Source of the DNA: Scytonematopsis contorta HA4267-MV1
GTDB lineage: Bacteria; Cyanobacteriota; Cyanobacteriia; Cyanobacteriales; Nostocaceae
NCBI GenBank assembly: GCA_019359035.1
Contig: JAHHIC010000051.1
Location: 94,146-158,145, forward strand
Direction: 5' to 3'
DNA length: 64,000 nt
The notes under the pieces were generated by a model that was not told the DNA's origin, did no database searches, and saw only the letters and a list, made by a program, of their open reading frames with translations. The position numbers and the translations under genes were made by a program. Below are positions 43,975-55,326 of this stretch, one piece after another. How positions within the stretch are numbered: position 1 is the first letter of the stretch; each line of letters begins with the position of its first letter.

Positions 43975-44547
43975 ATGAATATCCAACGTCGCAATTTATT
44001 TCTCGCTTTAGGTGCTGGTTTTGCTGGGTTTATCTCAAGCACTGCAATAGCTATAGCCCGTACTAAATCGTCTCGTCAAAATAATAATCAAGTGTCTAGT
44101 AATACTACAAATACGCAGAGAGTTGCAGACCGGGCTGAAATTATTGATGCTGTAAACATTATTGGTATGGGTGCTGATTTACGAGACTGGAAAGCTAGTC
44201 GTGCAGCTTTTGCAGATAAAGTTTTAACAGATTATACCTCCCTTACGGGTGGTAGTCCCAGTACAGTGGAAGCTGATAAATTAATAGCTGGGTGGACAGA
44301 TTTTTTCAGCAAAACTTTTAAAGCCACACAGCATATGATTACAAATCATGCAGTGGAGATTAAAGGTGATAAAGCAACCTGCACCTCTTTGTTTCAAGCA
44401 CATCATGTTTATCTTGATAACACTAAAGGTAAAACTTGGACGCTTGGAGGATATTACAATCACGGACTAACTCGAATCAACGGACGTTGGAAAGTGACCG
44501 AAATGAAGATGACTTGGACTTGGGAAGATGGTACTCGTCCTGGCTAG
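43975..44547 (+). CDS. NTF2-like / SnoaL-like protein with a Tat signal
   Basis: A twin-arginine motif lies in QRRNLFLALGAGFAG. The C-terminal motif GRWKVTEMKMTWTWE is typical of NTF2-like folds. Confidence 0.55.
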   Translation: MNIQRRNLFLALGAGFAGFISSTAIAIARTKSSRQNNNQVSSNTTNTQRVADRAEIIDAVNIIGMGADLRDWKASRAAFADKVLTDYTSLTGGSPSTVEADKLIAGWTDFFSKTFKATQHMITNHAVEIKGDKATCTSLFQAHHVYLDNTKGKTWTLGGYYNHGLTRINGRWKVTEMKMTWTWEDGTRPG

Positions 44548-44685
44548 TAAGTAGGTAGGCAGGAATAAAGTCCGCTATGTAAACAAATGTAAAATTGACG
44601 AGTGGTGCTCACAATAAGCCTTGGCGCTGAAGCGCAACTACAAACCTAAAGTAATTTTTTTCCACCGACTTACTTAAGATTTGGG

Positions 44686-44748
44686 ATTTTATTTTGGTTT
44701 TGGTTTTGATTTTGGTTTTGATTTTAGTTTTGATTTTTCACCATAGAA
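44686..44748. repeat. STRR-like heptamer tandem repeat (TTTTGRT)n, about 8 copies
   Basis: gattttattttggttttggttttgattttggttttgattttagttttgatttt. Confidence 0.9.
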
Positions 44749-45151
44749 AATTACATTGTTACTCTTTATCTGTGTAATATATATAACTGTTGTGATATAG
44801 CTGCTAAACGGTGGAATCGCCGGAATTAGATGCAATTCACTATCAATTTATTGTTTAGAAACTTCCACAATATAATTTATCCAATAGGGTTTTCAGTCCC
44901 TATTTCCGTTCTAGCCCTTATCTCGGCTCAACCTCTACACCAAGGTTTTCTGTTCCGATGCTACTAGAGAGCCAACTTGCGTAAATAGAAAATCACCCTA
45001 ACGGGTAATAGGATCTTATTTTTTATAAAAGTAAATTTCTAATTAATTTAGACAATTAATACAAATCTTTTATATTGAGAACGGCTCAATACCCTCTTGA
45101 TTTCGTCTGCTGCTATTGACTGAATAAAAGTAACCTAAAAGGAAAAGCACA

Positions 45152-46900
45152 ATGCAACTTACGACACAGGAGACGGACATTGCTATGAAGCTTCAAGACT
45201 TTGACATTGATATGGAGAAGCTCTTGAAAGACTGGAACGCACCAGGCTTCGGTGTAGGAATTGTCGAAAAGGATAAACTCATCTTTGCCCGAGGTTATGG
45301 CTATCGGGACTATGAGGAGAAGCTGCCTTTTACCTCTAAAACGCTTTTCCCAATCGCCTCTAATACTAAGCTCTTTACCGCTATAGCTGCGGGAATGCTG
45401 GTGGAATCCGGGAAACTAACGTGGGATAAACCAATCCGTGATGCGGTTCCGACAATCCGCTTCTACAACAATGACTTAAATAACACCGTAACCTTGCGGG
45501 ATATGCTGACTCACCGCACGGGCATAACTCGTCACGACAGTATCTGGTATAAACAGGACTCTCTTACTCGCAAAGATATCTTTGATAGGCTTCAGTACAT
45601 GAAACCAGAGGTATCGCTGCGAGAAGCTTATATCTATAACAACAATATGTATGCTGTTGTTGGGTACATTATTGAGTTGCTGTCAGGAAAAACCTGGGAA
45701 GAGTTTGTCCGCGAGAGGATTTTCAAACCTCTGTCCATGCACAATACTATTTATAGCACTGCCGAGATGTTGAAGCAGTCTGACTACGGCGTACCATTTA
45801 CCGAAAAACGAGAAAGCAACGAGATTTACAAGATTCCATACTATAAGGAACTAAGTGCCATAGCTCCCGCTGGGGCGATCATCTCCAACATCGAAGAAAT
45901 TTCCCACTGGCTCGTGGCATTGATGAACGATGGCAATTATATCGGTAAGCAGGTTCTTCCACCGAACATACTCAAGGCAACCATAGAACCGGGGATGGCA
46001 CTGCCAAACGTGTTAGGCGAAACACGGGGCTGGTGGGAATTGCTTAACCCTGTTTATGGAATGGGTCGCGAGACGGCATCTTATCGAGGACATCTGTTAA
46101 CATATCACGGGGGAGATATTGACGGATTTCATTCCCAGATGTCTTTTCTGACTCAAAATAAACTTGGTGTGATTGTCTTCACAATTGGCGATCATTGTAG
46201 TTTATTAGCAAATACAATCACTTACAATATCTACGAACGCCTCTTGGGTCTGACTCAAACACCTTGGAGCGATCACTGGCTTAATCTAATACTTAAGTCC
46301 AAACAAGCAGGTAAGGAGGCGCGGTCAAAAGCAGGCACAGATAGGGTTTCTAATACCACTTCCTCACATTCCCTAACTGATTACGTGGGTGAATATACGC
46401 ACCCAATTTACGGCACTCTTAAGATTGAAATGAAGAATGACAATCTTCTATTCAACTTCGGAAGGATTCAGCTGCCCCTGACTCACTTTCACTATGACCG
46501 TTTCGATACACCCGATTCGGAGCTTGACGGCAAGTGGTCGGTGAACTTCCTTACCAATCCCCAAGGCGAAGTGAACAAAGTAGTAATGTCAATCGACGAA
46601 GCAGAAGCAACGTTCACCCGTCAGGCGGCAATTCTAGACCCGCAACTTTTAACACAGCTTGCAGGAACATACAAAACACCAACAGAATGGAAGTTACAGG
46701 TCGTTCTAAAAGAAGATAATTTTCTCTATCTAGTATCCCCAGGAGAGCCGGAATCAAAGCTGATTCCCTATAAAAACCTTACGTTCCAAACCCAAAGGTT
46801 CTCTGACCATAGGTTTGAGTTTGTTATGGAGAACGGTCGAGTAAAGGCTCTAAACCGGAGCGAACCGTCGGGTTCATACGTATTTATACGAATGATTTAA
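45152..46900 (+). CDS. serine hydrolase of the beta-lactamase / penicillin-binding-protein family with a C-terminal beta-sandwich domain
   Basis: An RBS is present. The S-x-x-K motif appears as PIASNTKLFTA. The YxN-like element is YIYNNNMYAVVGY. Confidence 0.85.
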   Translation: MQLTTQETDIAMKLQDFDIDMEKLLKDWNAPGFGVGIVEKDKLIFARGYGYRDYEEKLPFTSKTLFPIASNTKLFTAIAAGMLVESGKLTWDKPIRDAVPTIRFYNNDLNNTVTLRDMLTHRTGITRHDSIWYKQDSLTRKDIFDRLQYMKPEVSLREAYIYNNNMYAVVGYIIELLSGKTWEEFVRERIFKPLSMHNTIYSTAEMLKQSDYGVPFTEKRESNEIYKIPYYKELSAIAPAGAIISNIEEISHWLVALMNDGNYIGKQVLPPNILKATIEPGMALPNVLGETRGWWELLNPVYGMGRETASYRGHLLTYHGGDIDGFHSQMSFLTQNKLGVIVFTIGDHCSLLANTITYNIYERLLGLTQTPWSDHWLNLILKSKQAGKEARSKAGTDRVSNTTSSHSLTDYVGEYTHPIYGTLKIEMKNDNLLFNFGRIQLPLTHFHYDRFDTPDSELDGKWSVNFLTNPQGEVNKVVMSIDEAEATFTRQAAILDPQLLTQLAGTYKTPTEWKLQVVLKEDNFLYLVSPGEPESKLIPYKNLTFQTQRFSDHRFEFVMENGRVKALNRSEPSGSYVFIRMI

Positions 46901-46998
46901 ACAACTTATTTAAATTAGTAAGTCTTGTTTAGCAATATTTTTTGGAGTTTTTTAATAATAGACATCTCCATAAATTAATTATGCGTTACCTGAAACCC

Positions 46999-47022
46999 AG
47001 AGACGCGATTAATCGCGTCTCT
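46999..47022 (+). terminator. Hairpin-family element AGAGACGCGATTAATCGCGTCTCT downstream of the serine hydrolase gene
   Basis: Same palindrome family as the 19744 element. Confidence 0.5.
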
Positions 47023-47159
47023 ACCTTCTCTTCCGGAGAATTTTTAATTAGTTGTATATACGTACGCTGCAAGATATCAGGTATGAATACTTTAACATGT
47101 TGACAAACGCACCCTACTTACCCGAAGATACTAAAACTAAAGCTGAAACGAGTATTAAT

Positions 47160-47480
47160 CGGAAATATAGGGATAATCATTATCTAAAAACTATCAATAC
47201 GCTGCTATATATGAATTGTTGATTTAAATCAATTGACAATAAGCAAAAAATATAGCCCTGAAATGCCTGTAAAAGATGAAAGACAATAATGATTATCTCT
47301 ATATTCGTAGCAAACCCTGATGAAAACTTGAATTTCACGAAGAAAAAGCAGTTAACTCAATACCCAAGACCACGACCGTCATAATTGCTCTGATATTATC
47401 TTCCTCAATTCAACGCACAACCATCAACCCAACATCTATCGAGTGCGATCGCTCATCGCAAACCTAAATATTTTGTCAAT
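47160..47480. repeat. ~320-bp dispersed repeat, copy A (contains a HIP1 GCGATCGC site)
   Basis: About 85-90% identical to 50565-50890. The first ~150 bp also match 51050-51200. Confidence 0.85.
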
Positions 47481-48076
47481 AAAGGCTTGTATCTTGCTCG
47501 CTCTTTGCCATAACAGGTTTAGGGCAATATTGCGACTGTTGCTTCCAGCGAGTTTAATTTGCAGTTATCAAAGCTGCTTATACGCTTATAATTTAAACTA
47601 TGCCAGGGCTAACAACTGTTGCCTGATTACCTAGGTATTCCGATAATTAATGGGTAAATTACAAGATTATAGTTAGGGATAAGTTGAGTGGAGTATCGAT
47701 AGGGAAGATGTGAGCATAGACACGCATCTGAATCCAGGAAGAAAAAGGGTAACTACTAAACCTAGAAATTCACTCTTACTCACTCTTATATTCGAGATTT
47801 TCAATCTTGTAAATGAGGTTAAAAAACAGTTATCTAGCATATATATATTGACAGCATCTGTGATGTCTTATACCTGTAATAAACATAGCAAAAAAGCTTT
47901 TCTATTGTTAAAGATATTAATTAAATAAGTTTATATAAGGATTAAAGGCTGACCAAACATCATCAAATAATTAATATTTATTAACAAACGATGTTTATGT
48001 AAATTTTCCTAAAAAAATACTGGCTCATAATTGTTTTGGTGTTTAATTATAATGTGAGTTTTCAAGAGCAACCTTT

Positions 48077-49585
48077 ATGTCAACTCTAACTTATTGTAAG
48101 GGACTACCAACTCCATTAGATGAATTAAACTCACTTGGCTTTACTAAGCTCGAAATGTTTTTGGCAGCTTATGCGACTGAGTTCCATAAAGCTGTTTGTC
48201 AGACTGTTAATCATTTGCTTTCACTTGGGGATAAAAAGTTTGATAAGTCTGGTTGGAATACTCATATCCAAAATAAATATGGTTTTTTAAAACGTCAGGC
48301 TAATGGTGTTATATCATCTGCAATTGGTAAAATAGACTCAGCAAAAGAATGTAGAGTAAATCATATAAAACAACTAGAAGGTAAACTTAAATCAGCATTA
48401 GAGTGGGTAAAAAAATCACTTAAAAAACTCTTGCTCGCCGAAAAATTTTACTTAAAACCCAACTGGATAAACTCAAAAACGGGATGTAATTATCCATTAA
48501 GTTGTTGGTTAAGTGATGCTCTAACTAATTGGCAAGCCTTGAGAAAAAATATTCATCATAAAAAAAGATATATTGCTAAACTTCAAAAACAAATTGCCCA
48601 TTTAAAAAAAGCCCCACTAAGAGTAAAAGTGCCTAAAAGTGATATATTTCTTGTTGGGTCAAAGGATGAAACCTGTGGGAACCAAGTATGCCAATGGGAT
48701 GGTGACTTAATTACTATTAGAGTACCCAAATGCTTAGAGTCTAATTTTGGAACCCATGTTCAATCAAAAATTGGTAATTTTGAGAGAAAAAATTCTCGCT
48801 TACCTACATCCGGAGCAAAAACATGGCACTTTTATCGTAAAGATGGTAAGTGGACTGTTGCAGTACAATTCACTCCGATAAAAGTCAAAAAGCGTACTCT
48901 TGATATTAAGTGGGGAGCGATTGGAATTGATATTAATCCAAGTTCAATTGGCTGGGCTTATATTGATTACCAAGGAAATTTAAAACTACAGGGTCAAATA
49001 CCATTGCAGCAAGGATTACCAAAAGGTAAACAACAGGCTCAACTGGTTAATGCCTGTTTAAAACTAGCAATTTTAGCTGATACGTTTGCTTGTCCAATTG
49101 TTGCTGAGAATATAGATTTTACAATCAAAAAACAACAACTAAGAGAAAAAGGTAATCAATATGCTCGTATGCTTTCCGGTTGGGCATACTCTAGATTTTT
49201 TGAATTATTAGCTAGTATTTTATCCAATCGTGGGTTGAGATTAGTTCATGTAAATCCAGCATATTCAAGTTTACTTGGATGCGTCAAATACATGAAAATG
49301 TATGGTTTGCCATCTGATGTTGCTGCAGCTATTGTAATAGCTCGTAGAGGCATGAAATTGAGTGAAAGAATGCCCCGCTCTGTGTCCGCCTATTTAGGGG
49401 TGAACCCTAGAAAGCACGTATGGAGCGGGTTGTCAAAATTTAATAATACTGTAGTACGAACTGGCAACGTAGTTAAGTCACGGCACGACTACTTTGTTAT
49501 CCCTAACTGGGGAGTGGTGGTTAAGGATGTCGTCGAGCGAGTAACTGTAAAAGGTAAAAGTCGGGCAGTTTCCAAGCAAGCTTAA
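48077..49585 (+). CDS. tnpB: TnpB-like RuvC-fold protein (IS200/IS605 OrfB-related) apparently lacking the zinc-finger
   Basis: RuvC-I-like WGAIGIDINPSSIG, RuvC-II-like CPIVAENIDFT, and RuvC-III-like VNPAYSS...SDVAAAIVIARRG are present. No CxxC...CxxC motif lies between RuvC-II and RuvC-III. The N-terminal ~250 aa is unassigned. Confidence 0.55.
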   Translation: MSTLTYCKGLPTPLDELNSLGFTKLEMFLAAYATEFHKAVCQTVNHLLSLGDKKFDKSGWNTHIQNKYGFLKRQANGVISSAIGKIDSAKECRVNHIKQLEGKLKSALEWVKKSLKKLLLAEKFYLKPNWINSKTGCNYPLSCWLSDALTNWQALRKNIHHKKRYIAKLQKQIAHLKKAPLRVKVPKSDIFLVGSKDETCGNQVCQWDGDLITIRVPKCLESNFGTHVQSKIGNFERKNSRLPTSGAKTWHFYRKDGKWTVAVQFTPIKVKKRTLDIKWGAIGIDINPSSIGWAYIDYQGNLKLQGQIPLQQGLPKGKQQAQLVNACLKLAILADTFACPIVAENIDFTIKKQQLREKGNQYARMLSGWAYSRFFELLASILSNRGLRLVHVNPAYSSLLGCVKYMKMYGLPSDVAAAIVIARRGMKLSERMPRSVSAYLGVNPRKHVWSGLSKFNNTVVRTGNVVKSRHDYFVIPNWGVVVKDVVERVTVKGKSRAVSKQA

Positions 49586-49882
49586 AGCAAGTAGCGCTTC
49601 CGCTTATTCGTACTAAGTTAAACCGTGGACTTGGATTGAGGAACTAGATTTTCCTACATTTTTAGAAGCGGTTGATATCAAGGAGTTGAACTTGCTAGCT
49701 CCAACTTTATATAATTTTGCACTACGACGTGTTGAACAAAAAAGTAAGTACAAAGGCGAGATATTCCCGGCTAACTATCCAGCAAATGATTCTGCTACAC
49801 CATATATAGATTTTTTCCAATTTGATACAAGAAGAAATGTCCGTAAGGGCATTATTGCTATAGATTTAACTAGGTGGGTACC

Positions 49883-50410
49883 ATGATGATAAGAAACGAG
49901 CAACAATATAATACTACTAAAGAGTGGTTACAAAAGTTTGAGCAGTCAGTAGCAGGAATTGAGAATGATGAGAGCTTGAAAGCAGACCAAGTACGTTGGA
50001 AGCTATATAGGGATGCGTACCAAAGTCAGGTAGATGAATTCTTAGAAGAAATTGCCGAGTATGAAAGATTAATTAATTGTGATAAAAACCAACCAATTAA
50101 AATTAAAGTTGAAAATTTTAACAAACTTCCAGATGTATTGCTAAAAGCTCGCATTGCTGCTAAAATGAGCCAGAAAGAACTGGCTGATATTTTAGGCATT
50201 GAAGAACAACGAGTCATAGATTGTGAAGACAAAGATTATCAATGTGCTAGCTTTATAGAAATTCTTAATGTTAGTGAAGTATTGGGTATAGAATTTAAGG
50301 ATGCGTTTGTACAAGTAGATTTTGAAGAAATAGAAGATTTTAAAGAAGTTGCTTTTGAATCGCACCAGCTTGAGCAAGAAAAGAAAAATATCAGAGCAAA
50401 AGCTTCATAA
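49883..50410 (+). CDS. HTH (XRE/HigA-like) DNA-binding protein
   Basis: LLKARIAAKMSQKELADILGIEEQRVIDCE is an HTH_3-type motif. The ATG lies downstream of the tracked GTG. Confidence 0.6.
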   Translation: MMIRNEQQYNTTKEWLQKFEQSVAGIENDESLKADQVRWKLYRDAYQSQVDEFLEEIAEYERLINCDKNQPIKIKVENFNKLPDVLLKARIAAKMSQKELADILGIEEQRVIDCEDKDYQCASFIEILNVSEVLGIEFKDAFVQVDFEEIEDFKEVAFESHQLEQEKKNIRAKAS

Positions 50411-50564
50411 TTATCAAAATAGTATATTCAATACATCTCCGGAAAATAAAAAATACCTAAAATAAAGTCAAAAATAAAACTGAACTTACTAGTCCATTTT
50501 ACATAGACATTTGCTAAATACTCTATTTACCCCCCGCGATACTAGAATTCAGGTTTGGACAGAA

Positions 50565-50890
50565 AGCTTTGGCGAATATAGAAATAATCATTATCAAAAA
50601 TTTCTTAAAGCATTGCAAAATAAGACTTGCTAATTTAAATTGATTAACAATAACCTAAAAATATTATCCTGAAATACCTATAAAATATACAAAATAATAA
50701 TGATTATCCCTATATTCGCCGCAAACCCTTACGAAAAATTGAATTTCACAACATTAGCCAGCCATCTCGATACCCAAGACCACAACCGTCATAATTGCTC
50801 TGATATTATCTTCATAAATTCAACGCACAACCGTCAACGCAGTATTTGCCGAGTGCGATCGCTAATCCCAAACCTAAATATTTTGCCACT
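50565..50890. repeat. ~320-bp dispersed repeat, copy B
   Basis: Matches copy A. Together they bracket the tnpB-like and HTH genes. Confidence 0.85.
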
Positions 50891-51049
50891 CTTGGTTAAA
50901 AGGGATTATTCAGTTAACCGTTCCGGTGTTCGCTAGTTGTAGAAAGCAACCGTTGAAATAGAAAATCATCTCCCCCACCTTTTATTTTATCAGGTGGTAT
51001 TCTTCGCAGTTGACCCTAGAATTCCCTTCCTTGCAAACAATCCACACAG

Positions 51050-51200
51050 ATGTAGAGATTATCATTATCATAAATTCATGAATGCATTGAGATATAACCA
51101 TTATTATTTTAAATTGATTGACAATAATCAAAAAATATAGTCCTAAAACTACCATAAAATCTACTAAATGGTAATGATTATCTCTATATTCGCGTAAAAA
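51050..51200. repeat. Partial third copy of the 5' ~150 bp of the dispersed repeat
   Basis: AATTGATTGACAATAA...AATGATTATCTCTATATTCG is shared with copies A and B. Confidence 0.75.
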
Positions 51201-51412
51201 CTGCCGATGGGATAGCTTACAGACAACTCATCAACCACAACGATAAATTTATCAAAACCCACCCTCTCCACTCTCCATAAAAATTTCTAGGAGATAAATA
51301 TAGTTCAACAACCATATCCGAAATTATACGGAAACAAATATAATCATTTCCGGAATCACTTAGGTAGAGTAAGTATCATATAGCAACGTGCTGACTGGGA
51401 AAAGGTCGTGTG

Positions 51413-53461
51413 ATGAATCAAGAAAACAAAGAAAACGCCAAAGGTCACCAAACTCAAATCAACGATAGCGGAACTGCTAATATCGTTGATAACACCAGCA
51501 CGACAAACCAGTCAGCACAAGGAACTGGCAATAACTTATCAATAAATAACAGTAAATACGACCAAAGACAAGCCAATATAGCTGGTATTGTCGATACTGC
51601 TCATAGTGGCAGCAACATACAATTTAATCAATATATTAACCAACCCCCCCGTGAACCAATAAAACCCGCAAACAAAATACCCCACCAAGGAACCTCCCAT
51701 TTCGTCGGACGAGATAACGAACTCGCACTTATCCACGAAAAATTCACCGAGCAAAACCACACAGTTGCAATTTCCGCAGTTGCAGGGATGGGTGGTGTTG
51801 GTAAAACAGAGCTAGCAGTAAAATACGCGAGAGAGCATATTAATGATTATCCTGGAGGAACTTGTTGGTTTAGCGTCCGTTCTTCTAATATTGCAACAGA
51901 AATTCTCACCTTCGCCAAAAATGACCTGCGATTAGAAATACCTCAAAAAGACATTCAAGAACAACCCCTAACGCTACAACAACAAATAGACTGGTGTTGG
52001 AGAAATTGGCAACCACCAGATGGGGTAGTATTAATAGTATTTGATGACGTTACTGATTTAGAGAATTTTGCTGATTATTTACCGAAAAATAACCGCTTCC
52101 ACGTCTTAATCACAACCAGATTGCGAGAAATTGACGCTAACATCGAGGAAATATCTTTAGATGTGCTGTCACCAGAAGAAGCCTTAAGATTATTTACTAA
52201 TATAGTTGGTGAAAAAAAGGTAAATAAAGAAGCAGAAATAGTCAAAGAAATATGTAAATGGCTAGGATATTTACCGTTAGGGATAGAATTAGTCGGGAGA
52301 TATATAACTAAAAAACCCCCTCATTTTACTTTAGCAAGAATGCTAGAGCAATTAAAGCAGCAGCGATTAGAGCAAGAAGGGATAAATCCACAGCAAAAAA
52401 CATTAAGTACAGCGCAACTTGGTGTCAAAGCAGCGTTCGAGTTAAGCTGGTTAGAATTGAACGAACAAACGCAGAAATTTGCTGCACTATTAAGCTTATT
52501 TGCGGCAGAGATTTTTGCCTGGGATTGGGTAGAGTCTATAACTCAGTCGCTAAATTGGGATGAGGATGATGTAAATAAAGCGATTGAGGAACTTTATCAA
52601 CGGCATTTGGTTAACTCTTTAGAAGAATCAGATATATTTTACTATAAAATTCATACTTTAATCCGCGATTTTTTACAAGATAAGTTAACAGTATTACCAG
52701 AAATAGACGAATTTAAAAGAGCGTTCGTGGGTACTTTTATCGAAATAGCTCAAACAATTCCTGATTCACCGATTTTAGAAGAAATAAATTCAGTAAAAAA
52801 CACAATTCCCCATTTAGCGGAAGTCGCAGAAAAATTAATTGATACAGTGAGCAATGAAGATTTAATTTGGGCTTTTCTTGGCAATGCTAGATTTTATGAT
52901 GGACAGGGTTTATATACATTAGCATCACCTTGGTACGAACAATGCGTATCTGTAGTCAAATCTCGCTTGGGAGAAAATCATCCTGGTTATATGGAATTAA
53001 AAAAAATGTCAACAACGAACAACAACAACAACAAATCTAGGACTATATAGAGACTTTACATTGTTTGCATGTAAATAAAATGCATTATAGAAAAAGCTTT
53101 ACACGATGCGGACATTGTAACTAAAGTCAAGTTACTTCCAAATGGTTCCTAAACCTTTTGTTGTTGTCGTTGTTGACATTTAGTTTATATTCCACATAAC
53201 TTAGACTATGCTACCAGCTTAAACAATTTAGCTTTTCTCTACTACTCAATCGGAAAGTATGATGAAGCAGAACCGCTTTTTCTCCAAGCTTTGGAGTTAA
53301 GAAAACGCATACTGGGAGAAAATCATTCAAATACAATAGTAGTCAAACAAAATTTAGCTATTTGCTGGGTTAAAGGACTTGAAAAAGGTTATTTCTCAAT
53401 CGAAGTACTGCGCGAAAACCCTCTTTTCATCCAAATAATTACGGAGCTATATCAACAATAA
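51413..53461 (+). pseudogene. NB-ARC (STAND) NTPase + TPR gene disrupted by a MITE insertion in the first TPR
   Basis: The P-loop reads GMGGVGKTELA, Walker B reads VLIVFDDV, and the GLPL motif reads LGYLPLGIEL. The in-frame TPR continuation LDYATSLNNLAFLYYSIGKYDEAEPLFLQALELRKRILGENHSNT resumes at 53201 in the same reading frame. Stop codons lie inside the inserted element. Confidence 0.75.
53005..53180. mobile_element. MITE-like insertion of ~175 bp with (CAA)n-rich terminal inverted repeats
   Basis: The left TIR TGTCAACAACGAACAACAACAACAACAAA (53007-53035) is the reverse complement of the right TIR TTTGTTGTTGTCGTTGTTGACA (53157-53178). The interior is AT-rich and non-coding. Confidence 0.75.
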
Positions 53462-53661
53462 AACCACAAGAGACTCGATAGGAAGAAATACGGCTTCGTT
53501 TTGTTTTACCACCAGACTTAAAAGAATTTATCGAAAGTAATGATTGGAGATTTTCCTCCCAGTACCGCATCAAATTCTCTAGATTGATTTAGGTTACCGC
53601 TCATATTTGAAGTGAAAATTTTTTGGGAAGGTGCTGGTATAATACTAAAGGTTTTCTCTTA

Positions 53662-54315
53662 TTACATCTCTTGTGATATAGAAGTAAACATATCCTTTGC
53701 GATTCTACCGCAATTATGAACAAAAGCACTATCAAATCCGGCTCCCACAGCACCTCCCGCGAATGGAACCAACTTCATTAAATTGATAATACCTTTCTCA
53801 CCAGTCTTAGTAATTAATCTAAAGCCAACCGTTTTATTAATTTCGATTAAAATTTTTCTCGGAATTTTGCTAATGAGAGACTTAGTAACTTGATTTCCTA
53901 TCTGGACACCCGCAGTTCTAACTACTTCCAATCCAGAGTCACCCAATAATGTTAGAATTACAAAAGTGCGAACCTGTTCACATTTTATATCATAGCCTCT
54001 TAATACTGCTATGGTAGCAGCAGTATTAGCTGCCAATGTATAAGATGAAGCTAAACCAACAGGAATAGAAATTGGTAACGTTGCTAAACCACCTAATCCA
54101 GTCACAAATCCCGTACCAGCAGCATAAGCAGTGTTCCATGCAATTATTGAATTTATTGCTTTTTCCTTATCATATCCACATGACTTCAAATGGTCTTCTG
54201 CAATCTTCTCTGCCGAAGACAGAACTCCAAATCCGTTAATTCCCACAGCAACTATCCAATCTAAAAGAACTTTTGCTGGGTCGTTATTATTCCCAATGTT
54301 TGAGTTTATAGTCAT
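53662..54315 (-). CDS. EcsC-family protein
   Basis: The core IAWNTAYAAGTGFVTGLGGLATLPISIPVGLASSYTLAANTAATIAVLRGY resembles the EcsC family. Confidence 0.5.
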   Translation of the reverse strand: MTINSNIGNNNDPAKVLLDWIVAVGINGFGVLSSAEKIAEDHLKSCGYDKEKAINSIIAWNTAYAAGTGFVTGLGGLATLPISIPVGLASSYTLAANTAATIAVLRGYDIKCEQVRTFVILTLLGDSGLEVVRTAGVQIGNQVTKSLISKIPRKILIEINKTVGFRLITKTGEKGIINLMKLVPFAGGAVGAGFDSAFVHNCGRIAKDMFTSISQEM

Positions 54316-54420
54316 GACTATGCTTATTTTTATTAACTTGAATTTATTATTCCCGGATTTAAACTAAAACTCTCTATAGCAATCCTAAATCATTTGTTTG
54401 TAAAAAATCATAATAGAAAG

Positions 54421-54955
54421 TGTAGTGCGGGCATCTTGCCCGCTTCCTGTACACAAATTACCGCGCTTCCTATACACAAATTACCGCTTCCTATATACAA
54501 ATTACCGCGCTTCCTATACACAAATTACCGCTTCCTATACACAAATTACAGCGCTTCCTGTACACAAATGACAGCGTTTCCTGTACACAAATGACAGCGT
54601 TTCCTGTACACAAATTACAGCGCTTCCTGTACACAAATTACAGCGTTTCCTGTACACAAATTACAGCGTTTCCTGTACACAAATTACAGCGTTTCCTGTA
54701 CACAAATTACAGCGCTTCCTGTACACAAATTACAGCGTTTCCTGTACACAAATTACAGCGCTTCCTGTACAGAAATTACCGCTTCCTGTACAGAAATTAC
54801 CGCTTCCTGTACAGAAATTACCGCGCTTCCTGTACAGAAATTACCGCGCTTCCTGTACAGAAATTACCGCTTCCTGTACAGAAATTACCGCTTCCTGTAC
54901 AGAAATTACCGCGTTTCCTGTACAGAAATTACCGCGCTTCCTGTACAGAAATTAA
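54421..54955. repeat. Minisatellite of about 24 tandem 21-23-nt units (GCGCTTCCTGTACACAAATTACA variants). It is seeded by a GTAGTGCGGGCATCTTGCCCGCTTCC hairpin element.
   Basis: Read directly. The units differ by single substitutions (T/G, C/A, C/T) and a 2-nt indel. There are no unique spacers. Confidence 0.9.
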
Positions 54956-55326
54956 ATGCGGAGCTATCGGAACATTTTAAATCTCACCGATGTAGAGAAA
55001 GGCTTCTCAACCTTTGTTTTCTTGTCCTCCTTTTCCAATATTCTTTAATAATGGTATAGTTCCTCAAACATGGACTACTTATGTAGATTTAGTCAGCGTT
55101 AATCCGGGAAATTTTCAGAATCCAATTCAGTTATCTGTAGGTAAATCCCTCATAAATATGAATATGAATATTAGTACATTAGTTGTGAAATAATCAAATA
55201 ATTAAAAATGATTTGATATCTTCATCCCAGAACAAAAACCCTCTTAAAACTTCTCCCCTTATAGGCTACAATGTACATACAAGTTGAAGTCAAGGTATTT
55301 ACTCAGACTTGTGTGTACACGGTAGA

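What the first reader, a model, noticed from the sequence alone, without database searches (positions are those of the whole stretch)
47160..51200. Zinc-finger-less TnpB-like RuvC protein and an HTH gene bracketed by ~320-bp direct repeats
The 502-aa ORF carries the three RuvC motifs in TnpB order (GIDIN; AENID; SDVAAAIVIARRG). It lacks the CxxC...CxxC zinc ribbon normally found between RuvC-II and RuvC-III, and it has a long unassigned N-terminal half. It is followed by an XRE/HigA-like HTH gene. Both are enclosed by ~320-bp direct repeats at 47160-47480 and 50565-50890 that contain a HIP1 site. A third partial copy sits at 51050-51200 immediately upstream of the NB-ARC pseudogene. Direct repeats of this length are not the usual IS200/IS605 end structure. 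This could be a non-canonical TnpB-family element, or a TnpB gene captured between copies of an unrelated repeat. If the gene is active, an omega-RNA would be expected in the 3' flank at 49586-49880.
Basis: partly seen in the sequence, partly recalled or inferred. Interest (0 to 1): 0.6.

Follow-up and report, generated by a model that had tools for sequence, protein, structure and literature searches.

The report
Transposase-less IS607-type element, zinc-finger-less TnpB
The 502-residue gene is a divergent, zinc-finger-less relative of the RNA-guided nuclease TnpB sitting in its own 2.07-kb IS607-type insertion sequence that has lost its transposase gene; the 320-bp repeats and the HTH gene next to it are unrelated neighbours.

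Summary
The described features are all present. The ORF at 48077-49585 has the D-E-D RuvC motifs, has no CxxC pairs, and folds like Cas12f/g/k and TnpB. It belongs to a large cyanobacterial family (more than 725 close homologues; 2,465 clusters in the wider clade), and almost all members lack the zinc finger.

The real mobile unit is 47606-49671. Its left end (GGGCTAACAACTG...) and right end (...TTTTTAGAAGCGG) are conserved across dozens of genomes. Full-length relatives carry an IS607-type serine-recombinase tnpA directly upstream and occur as 100% identical copies at different sites. The window copy has no tnpA.

The right end holds a hairpin with compensatory base changes. Its loop is complementary to the last bases of the element, which fits an omega-RNA scaffold.

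The element interrupted a DUF6932 gene. The HTH gene is the second gene of that host operon, not cargo.

The "320-bp direct repeats" are copies of a dispersed MITE-like repeat. At least six more copies lie on other contigs of the same genome, none beside this gene.

Verdict: a new member of a known kind (IS607/TnpB). It is poorly annotated and untested, and of moderate interest.

The parts
47606..49671 (+). Complete tnpA-less IS607-type element (2,066 bp): LE, 470-nt non-coding stretch, tnpB-like ORF, RE
   Evidence: LE and RE are conserved in 34 loci, with element sizes of 1,665-2,459 bp. In Scytonema NIES-4073, 100% identical 2.3-kb copies with the same ends sit at three sites.
47606..47676 (+). 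Left end (LE): GGGCTAACAACTGTTGCC...TACCTAGGTATTCC...; begins with the GG(G) core
   Evidence: blastn to L019, L020, L031, L041 and L015 at 79-87% identity. nhmmer finds the LE in 35 loci; the flanks diverge immediately 5' of GGG.
48077..49585 (+). tnpB-like gene, 502 aa, RuvC D285/E344/D414, no zinc finger
49586..49671 (+). Right end (RE), the predicted 3' part of the omega/reRNA scaffold, ending ...TTTTTAGAAGCGG
   Evidence: 79-94% DNA identity to the REs of elements whose proteins are only about 60% identical. The terminal motif is present in nearly all loci.
49613..49634 (+). Covarying hairpin in the RE (stem 49613-49618 / 49629-49634). Its loop ACCGT (49622-49626) is complementary to GCGGT at 49668-49672.
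   Evidence: 60 distinct sequences: pair 10-23 is CG in 31 and GC in 26, with 3 unpaired. Covariation score is 0.289, against 0.137 in shuffles (0 of 500 reach it) and at most 0.153 when slid. The loop/3'-end pairing forms in 97% of cells but is invariant.
49672..49691 (+). Predicted guide template: host DNA immediately 3' of the RE (TTGATATCAAGGAGTTGAAC)
   Evidence: Inferred from the known TnpB mechanism. This sequence is the DUF6932 gene sequence that continues across the insertion point.
49668..49886 (+). 3' remnant of a DUF6932 gene (residues 79-150 of 150), cut by the element. Not part of the element.
   Evidence: Pfam DUF6932 positions 95-142 of 142, E=5.9e-8. tblastn of the intact Calothrix orthologue matches aa 79-150 at 85% identity, starting exactly at the RE junction. 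The intact target reads AATGGGGTTGATATC.
49874..50410 (+). XRE-type HTH gene, second gene of the DUF6932-HTH host operon. Not part of the element.
   Evidence: The intact DUF6932+HTH pair occurs in Calothrix NIES-4105 with no TnpB nearby.
47164..47478 (+). Repeat copy A: a 145-bp unit flanked by terminal inverted repeats (47164-47307) plus a 170-bp extension. Unrelated to the element.
50575..50888 (+). Repeat copy B (unit 50575-50718 plus extension)
51049..51193 (+). Repeat copy C (145-bp unit only), upstream of the NB-ARC gene
   Evidence: It is 89% identical over 374 bp to a copy upstream of an NB-ARC paralogue (L086).

Best explanation
The region 47606-49671 is a non-autonomous (tnpA-less) copy of an IS607-family insertion sequence. 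It is widespread in filamentous cyanobacteria.

Its only gene encodes a divergent TnpB-family RuvC nuclease. The catalytic triad is intact, the zinc-finger/TNB insert is replaced by a 13-residue linker, and the helical N-terminal half is enlarged.

By analogy with characterised TnpBs, I infer the following. The 3' end of the transcript (end of the ORF plus the RE) forms an omega/reRNA scaffold. The next 16-20 nt of flanking DNA supply the guide. The ribonucleoprotein cuts empty copies of the insertion site, so the element is restored by homologous repair.

Movement depends on the serine recombinase TnpA (MerR-type HTH plus resolvase domain). Full-length relatives encode it directly upstream, and it crosses over at a GG dinucleotide without making target-site duplications. 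The window copy could only be moved in trans.

This copy inserted at a GG inside a DUF6932 gene, the first gene of a DUF6932-HTH operon. The DNA to its left was later deleted or rearranged. The 320-bp repeats around it are copies of an unrelated dispersed MITE-like repeat.
For: Shown:
- Sequence-profile matches. All 24 family members hit NCBIfam guided_TnpB and TIGR01766 over the RuvC-II region. Distant relatives exceed the TIGR01766 cut-off.
- D285 and E344 are invariant and D414 is nearly invariant.
- Zinc finger. 102 of 103 full-length representatives of the wider clade lack two CxxC motifs.
- Mobility. Three 100% identical 2.3-kb copies with unrelated flanks occur in Scytonema NIES-4073, and two 99.9% identical copies occur in Tolypothrix.
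- IS607 TnpA. MerR plus Resolvase ORFs lie directly upstream in L019 and L073. Full or partial tnpA occurs in about 27 of 80 loci and also upstream of the distant relatives P0269 and P0205.
- Conserved LE and RE with no target-site duplication.
- The RE hairpin covaries.
- The insertion into DUF6932 sits at a GG.
- The repeats are dispersed elsewhere without TnpB.

Inferred: RNA-guided cleavage, the position of the guide, and homing.
Against: - The window protein scores below the curated cut-offs of every TnpB model (37 bits against 100; 23 against 32). It has no Pfam hit and no sequence hit to any solved structure.
- The AlphaFold model is of moderate quality only (pLDDT 75, C-terminal 70 residues below 50).
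- No Rfam family matches the RE. RNAalifold gives almost no energy because the proposed fold is a pseudoknot. The loop/3'-end pairing is invariant, so covariation cannot test it. There are no expression data.
- No TAM-like motif emerged from 33 left flanks beyond A at -1.
- The conserved CCTAG(G/A)T repeats in the LE and RE could mean the RE is conserved mainly as a TnpA binding site.
- The window copy has no tnpA remnant and its left flank is not the original target, so it may be an immobile relic.
Confidence: 0.85

Rival explanations
1. The TnpB-like gene and the HTH gene form one non-canonical mobile element or cassette delimited by the ~320-bp direct repeats.
For: Two 315-nt repeats at 80.6% identity do flank the two genes.
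Against: - The family's conserved ends lie inside the repeats, at 47606 and 49671, and they exclude the HTH gene.
- Identical copies elsewhere are 2.3 kb and carry neither the HTH gene nor these repeats.
- The HTH gene belongs to a DUF6932-HTH operon that exists without any TnpB in Calothrix.
- The repeat unit occurs on at least 6 other contigs of the same assembly with no TnpB, LE or RE nearby.
- A third copy lies outside the supposed unit.
Confidence: 0.03
2. The protein is a domesticated host factor, either TldR-like or Cas12k-like (an RNA-guided DNA binder or regulator) or a stand-alone type V CRISPR effector, rather than a transposon nuclease.
For: - Many loci, including the window, lack tnpA.
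- Paralogues within one genome are often only 70-85% identical.
Against: - The catalytic D-E-D is conserved, unlike TldR or Cas12k.
- No CRISPR array lies next to the gene; the only nearby array (54441-54981) has no spacers.
- Discrete identical copies with conserved LE and RE and an adjacent IS607 tnpA show a transposon life style.
- No NCBIfam Cas12k match was found.
Confidence: 0.07
3. The window copy is a dead relic. The ORF is intact only by chance, and the element neither moves nor makes a functional ribonucleoprotein in this genome.
For: - There is no tnpA and no tnpA remnant.
- The left flank is not the original target, so a rearrangement has occurred.
- Only fragments of a second copy are recorded for this genome.
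Against: - The 502-codon ORF is full length with all conserved residues.
- The LE and RE are intact, including the covarying hairpin.
- The closest relative (82% identity, L144) is also an intact tnpA-less element, so such copies persist. This matches the solo-TnpB (IS1341-type) elements described in the literature (PMC10691335).
Confidence: 0.25

Closest known systems
IS607-family insertion sequences (serine-recombinase TnpA plus TnpB; e.g. IS607, IS1535, ISFba1)
   Same: - Full-length relatives have a MerR-HTH plus resolvase-domain tnpA immediately upstream of tnpB.
- There are no terminal inverted repeats and no target-site duplication.
- A GG sits at both junctions and in the intact target.
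- Short repeated motifs are shared by the LE and RE.
- A structured RE abuts the flank.
   Different: - The window copy has no tnpA.
- The TnpB is about 500 aa rather than about 390-400 aa.
- It lacks the C4 zinc finger.
- Its RE matches no Rfam family, so RAGATH-18, the known IS607 reRNA source (PMC11061315), did not reach threshold in the Rfam scan.
Canonical TnpB (ISDra2, IS608, IS1341-type solo TnpB)
   Same: - Split RuvC with D-E-D in the same order.
- The 'NPAYTS' strand and the 'SDxAAAxxIARRG' RuvC-III helix resemble the canonical 'yTSq' and 'nADxNAAxNIa' motifs (own knowledge of the motifs).
- The 3'-terminal structured RNA region ends at the transposon boundary.
- Solo tnpA-less copies are common.
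   Different: - No zinc ribbon between RuvC-II and RuvC-III.
- About 280 residues precede RuvC-I, with long helices (H24-50, H72-125, H151-178).
- Scores fall below the Pfam and NCBIfam cut-offs.
- The associated transposase is a serine recombinase, not Y1.
Zinc-finger-less TnpB branches in the Altae-Tran et al. 2023 census (e.g. clade RIIIr-4; PMC10691335)
   Same: Loss of the C4 zinc finger in a large branch. Some such branches are associated with serine recombinases.
   Different: RIIIr-4 is described as having the RuvC-III aspartate replaced by histidine. Here the aspartate (D414) is kept. I could not map this family onto their tree.
Pro-Fanzors (cyanobacterial IS607 TnpBs ancestral to Fanzor; PMC10711439)
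   Same: Cyanobacterial and associated with IS607 TnpA.
   Different: Pro-Fanzors are defined by a DPG RuvC-I motif, a relocated glutamate six residues before CxxC, and a zinc finger. This family has GIDxN, a glutamate at the canonical position and no zinc finger.
Cas12k (type V-K CAST effector) and Cas12f
   Same: Best structural matches. Cas12k is also cyanobacterial.
   Different: - No CRISPR array.
- No Tn7-like genes.
- The catalytic triad is intact.
- No sequence-profile match to Cas12k.

Membership tests
TnpB/Cas12 RuvC superfamily | WED-REC-split-RuvC architecture (fold) | tested here: met
   [not shown]
TnpB/Cas12 RuvC superfamily | Conserved D-E-D triad in RuvC-I/II/III order | tested here: met
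   D285 and E344 are invariant. D414 is at least 90% conserved, with one E.
TnpB/Cas12 RuvC superfamily | Sequence-profile match to curated TnpB models above their cut-off | tested here: not met
   For the window protein, guided_TnpB scores 37.1 bits against 100 and TIGR01766 scores 23.4 against 32, over residues 341-406 only. There is no Pfam hit. Distant relatives do pass TIGR01766 (35-51 bits). This is an operational threshold of those models, not a definition of the superfamily.
TnpB/Cas12 RuvC superfamily | C4 zinc finger (TNB) between RuvC-II and RuvC-III; typical, but reported lost in some branches (PMC10691335) | tested here: not met
   No conserved Cys lies between E344 and D414. 102 of 103 clade representatives lack two CxxC motifs.
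TnpB/Cas12 RuvC superfamily | Guide RNA (omega/reRNA) encoded at the 3' end and abutting the transposon boundary | tested here: inconclusive
   The RE is conserved with a covarying hairpin and a complementary 3' end. There is no Rfam match and no expression data.
TnpB/Cas12 RuvC superfamily | RNA-guided, TAM-dependent DNA cleavage | not testable with these tools
   Needs biochemistry. No clear TAM emerged from 33 left flanks.
IS607 family | Serine-recombinase TnpA with an N-terminal MerR-like HTH | tested here: not met
   Absent from the window copy: no tblastn hit between 47606 and 48076. Present in full-length relatives: Pfam MerR E=1e-13 and Resolvase E=6.5e-18. The family qualifies; this copy is a non-autonomous derivative.
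IS607 family | No terminal inverted repeats, no target-site duplication, GG crossover dinucleotide | tested here: met
   The LE (GGGYT...) and RE (...AAGCGG) are unrelated in sequence. The flanks of 33 distinct elements show no duplication. The intact DUF6932 target has GGGG at the junction.
IS607 family | Discrete multi-copy unit with the same ends at different sites | tested here: met
   Three identical copies in Scytonema NIES-4073 and two in Tolypothrix. This was shown in relatives only, not in the window genome.
IS200/IS605 family | Y1 (HUH) TnpA and subterminal hairpin ends | tested here: not met
   The adjacent transposase in relatives is a serine recombinase. No Y1 ORF lies upstream in the loci examined.
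Type V CRISPR-Cas effector | Adjacent CRISPR array and/or cas1, cas2 or Tn7-like genes | tested here: not met
   No spacer-containing array lies within 44000-55000. There is no cas neighbourhood in L019, L073, L141 or L143.
Pro-Fanzor | DPG in RuvC-I, relocated glutamate next to CxxC, zinc finger | tested here: not met
   The family has GIDxNP, a canonical E344 and no CxxC. The definition is taken from PMC10711439.
TnpB clade RIIIr-4 (Altae-Tran 2023) | No zinc finger, and RuvC-III Asp replaced by His | tested here: not met
   The zinc finger is absent (met), but D414 is retained. The definition is from PMC10691335.
MITE-like dispersed repeat (for the 320-bp repeats) | Short non-coding unit with terminal inverted repeats, many dispersed copies | tested here: met
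   The unit is 145 bp with 20-22-nt terminal inverted repeats. Three copies lie in the window and at least 6 on other JAESGU01 contigs at 72-89% identity. Target-site duplication was not resolved.

The most novel reading that the evidence does not exclude
Probability: 0.1. Interest if true: 0.6.

Novelty: new member of a known kind. Interest (0 to 1): 0.33.

Why it matters
The finding corrects the annotation of a "hypothetical protein" (MBW4508318.1). It also points to a large TnpB clade that no Pfam model recognises and that NCBI leaves unnamed: 2,465 clusters at 50% identity.

The clade does without the zinc-finger/TNB module that most TnpBs and many Cas12s carry, yet it keeps the catalytic triad and remains mobile. 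It would therefore be a natural test of what that module is for, and a source of guide-RNA scaffolds not yet in Rfam.

For this locus, the result explains why a DUF6932-HTH operon is truncated. It also shows that the striking 320-bp repeats are ordinary dispersed repeats.

Tried and rejected
- Sequence searches of the protein and of the family profile against PDB sequences gave only noise.
- PADLOC gave nothing for the nuclease.
- Rfam at E<=5 gave no relevant family over 46900-51500.
- Megablast and blastn of the region and of repeat A against PLSDB plasmids found no match.
- Exact look-ups of the window's own proteins in the contig index were not on record. The organism was obtained from cluster membership instead.
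- I joined the left and right flanks of the element in all registers to rebuild the DUF6932 ORF. No convincing N-terminal part appeared, and the 5' part of DUF6932 is found nowhere in the window. The left junction is therefore secondary.
- I searched for tnpA remnants between the LE and the ATG and found none.
- I searched for a TAM in 33 left flanks and found only A at -1 and T at +1.
- RNAalifold on 37 right ends was uninformative, at -2.5 kcal/mol, because the hairpin and the long-range pairing are mutually exclusive in a nested model.
- A closing helix CCGCUU/AAGCGG predicted for the window RE alone is not conserved even in the closest relative, so I rejected it.
- The exact 20-mer of the MITE terminal repeat is absent from the 80 loci of other cyanobacteria.
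- I could not place the family on the published TnpB tree.
Full report
**1. Observation.**

The window is AT-rich cyanobacterial DNA (37% G+C, four HIP1 sites). Exact protein look-up assigns it to the MAG Scytonematopsis contorta HA4267-MV1. There the 502-aa product is recorded as "hypothetical protein KME64_17655".

- The ORF lies at 48077-49585.
- It carries the GIDIN, AENID and SDVAAAIVIARRG motifs.
- There is no CxxC pair between the last two motifs.
- A 178-aa gene with a weak XRE-type HTH follows at 49874-50410.
- Two direct repeats, 47164-47478 and 50575-50888, are 80.6% identical over 315 nt, and each contains a HIP1 site.
- A third, partial copy lies at 51049-51193, in front of an NB-ARC ORF.

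**2. What the protein is.**

Pfam finds nothing. NCBIfam gives only sub-threshold, partial matches to guided_TnpB (E=2e-9, residues 345-406) and to TIGR01766. Sequence searches against PDB find nothing.

The protein has more than 725 homologues of about 500 aa at roughly 60% identity. All named sources are filamentous cyanobacteria. JGI calls them "IS605 OrfB", while NCBI calls them hypothetical.

In a 24-sequence alignment, D285 and E344 are invariant and D414 is nearly so. No cysteine is conserved between RuvC-II and RuvC-III. The canonical zinc ribbon is replaced by about 13 residues.

A profile search of 1.84 billion cluster representatives finds 2,465 clusters at E<=1e-3 and 452 at E<=1e-30. 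Ten distant members all hit guided_TnpB and TIGR01766, several above the TIGR01766 cut-off, and most also hit Cas12f2. Of 103 full-length representatives, 102 lack a double CxxC.

The ORF is therefore a member of a large, zinc-finger-less clade of the TnpB/Cas12 superfamily.

**3. What the mobile unit is.**

The gene is multi-copy in several genomes. In Scytonema sp. NIES-4073, three loci share a 100% identical 2,301-2,303-bp segment with unrelated flanks. Tolypothrix has two 99.9% identical copies.

Across genomes whose proteins are only about 60% identical, two short non-coding blocks stay 79-94% identical at the DNA level:
- A left end, at window 47606-47676, begins GGGCTAACAACTGTTGCC.
- A right end, at window 49586-49671, finishes TTTTTAGAAGCGG.

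The right-end motif is present downstream of the gene in nearly every locus. nhmmer recovers the left end in 35 loci, with flanks diverging immediately 5' of GGG.

Thirty-four complete LE-RE units measure either about 2.2-2.46 kb or 1.67-2.17 kb. None has a target-site duplication. Target preference is weak, with A at -1 and T at +1 around GG.

The longer class carries a 206-223-aa ORF directly upstream of the nuclease gene. This ORF has a MerR-type HTH and a resolvase catalytic domain (Pfam E=1e-13 and 6.5e-18). That is the IS607-type serine transposase.

Full or partial tnpA is present in about 27 of 80 loci. It also lies upstream of two distant clade members.

The window unit is 2,066 bp and has no tnpA or tnpA remnant. 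Its closest relative (82% identity) is likewise a tnpA-less LE-RE unit.

The features that match the published description of IS607 elements (PMC6188088) are:
- absence of terminal inverted repeats;
- absence of target-site duplication;
- a GG at both junctions;
- CCTAG(G/A)T repeats shared by the LE and RE.

**4. Guide RNA.**

The right end lies entirely downstream of the stop codon. In 60 distinct right ends, a hairpin (window 49613-49618 / 49629-49634) shows compensatory changes:
- Pair 10-23 is C-G in 31 sequences and G-C in 26, with 3 unpaired.
- The covariation score is 0.289, against 0.137 in shuffles (0 of 500 reach it) and at most 0.153 for slid partners.

The hairpin loop ACCGY is complementary to the terminal GCGGT. 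This pairing forms in 97% of cells, but it is invariant and so is untested by covariation.

This arrangement resembles the pseudoknotted 3' scaffold of known omega-RNAs (resemblance from my own knowledge). It places the predicted guide at 49672 onward. No Rfam family reached threshold, so RAGATH-18 was not detected. I treat RNA-guided cleavage as inferred, not shown.

**5. The neighbours.**

The 66-codon ORF at 49686-49886 matches only the last third of Pfam DUF6932. In Calothrix sp. NIES-4105, an intact 150-aa DUF6932 gene is followed directly by the orthologue of the HTH gene, with no TnpB nearby.

Homology to that gene starts exactly at the right-end junction, at residue 79. The intact sequence there reads AATGGGGTTGATATC, so the element sits on a GG.

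The HTH gene is thus the second gene of a disrupted host operon and is not cargo. The 5' part of DUF6932 is not found to the left of the element or anywhere else in the window. The left junction is therefore secondary, produced by deletion or rearrangement.

**6. The 320-bp repeats.**

Each repeat starts with a 145-bp unit bounded by 20-22-nt terminal inverted repeats. A scan of metagenome contigs with the terminal 19-mer returned six contigs of one assembly (JAESGU01). One of them has the same length as a contig recorded for S. contorta.

All six carry the unit at 72-89% identity. One (L106) carries almost the whole 320 bp. None has the nuclease gene, the LE or the RE. Copy C and the L086 copy share a longer segment upstream of NB-ARC paralogues.

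The repeats are therefore a dispersed MITE-like family. Their position around the gene pair is coincidental.

**7. Comparison with the literature.**

Altae-Tran et al. 2023 (PMC10691335) report three relevant points:
- The C4 zinc finger has been lost in some large TnpB branches, and clade RIIIr-4 lacks it.
- Several branches are associated with serine recombinases.
- Solo TnpBs within transposon ends are common.

RIIIr-4 has RuvC-III Asp replaced by His, which is not the case here. Pro-Fanzors, the cyanobacterial IS607 TnpBs of PMC10711439, are defined by DPG, a relocated glutamate and a zinc finger, none of which apply. I found no paper describing or testing this particular family. I could not place it on the published tree.

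**8. Verdict.**

This is a tnpA-less IS607-type element encoding a divergent, zinc-finger-less TnpB. It is inserted in a host DUF6932 gene and sits among unrelated MITE-like repeats.

It is a new member of a known kind. Its interest is moderate and rests on three points:
- A large clade is missed by standard annotation.
- Loss of the zinc finger occurs naturally with a retained triad and retained mobility.
- The right-end RNA structure is not in Rfam.

Noticed in passing
window 49668-49886 (and L081 3549-4522): This is a truncated DUF6932 gene. The intact Calothrix orthologue has a GS...DxD motif ('IDGSFVSNKEKPGDFDA') typical of minimal nucleotidyltransferases. It is always followed by the 175-aa XRE-HTH protein, and one database entry (P0314, 290 aa) fuses the two. 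This may be a two-gene toxin-antitoxin-like or defence module.
   Followed up: partly
window 47479-47605: This 127-bp stretch lies between the end of repeat A and the IS left end. It is neither repeat nor DUF6932. Repeat A is cut short at 47478 relative to copy B and L106. The IS left junction is therefore not the original insertion junction.
   Followed up: partly
window 47164-47307, 50575-50718, 51049-51193; L086, L106, L115, L122, L128, L134: A 145-bp MITE-like unit has the terminal inverted repeats (C)GAATATAGGGATAATCATTAT / ATAATGATTATCCCTATATTCG. Sub-families share longer flanks. Copy C and the L086 copy both lie upstream of NB-ARC paralogues (89% identity over 374 bp). This suggests the repeat is carried along with duplicated 5' regions of NB-ARC genes.
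   Followed up: partly
window 51410-53461: The NB-ARC/TPR ORF stops at 53050 after a poly-Asn run, yet TPR-like fragments continue at 53291-53461. Inverted repeats at 52998-53042 and 53147-53187 may mark a small insertion that disrupts the gene.
   Followed up: no
window 54441-54981: A tandem array of about 23 units of 23 or 21 nt (CGCTTCCTGTACACAAATTACAG) with no spacers. It is not a CRISPR array.
   Followed up: no
window 48077-49585 (protein residues 137, 205, 219, 251): The family conserves C137, C205, C219 and H251 in the N-terminal half, although the canonical zinc finger is gone. This could be a metal site elsewhere in the protein.
   Followed up: no
L003 11526-11611: A solo copy of the right end lies 4 kb downstream of a complete element in Dulcicalothrix desertica, next to a run of N. 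It is either a second, masked or unassembled copy, or an isolated right end.
   Followed up: no
loci L018, L045, L053, L062, L064, L070 etc., last ~60 nt of the ORF and the stop-codon region (alignment A4 columns 1-60): Further hairpin-like complementary segments lie upstream of the covarying hairpin (e.g. CCTCGA...TTGAGG, then AAGCAyT...AATGCTT around the stop codon). The RNA scaffold probably extends into the ORF. This was not tested formally.
   Followed up: no
[not shown]
   Followed up: partly
window 45152-46900: A 582-aa serine beta-lactamase/DUF3471 protein is encoded just upstream of the region. It appears to be an ordinary host gene.
   Followed up: no
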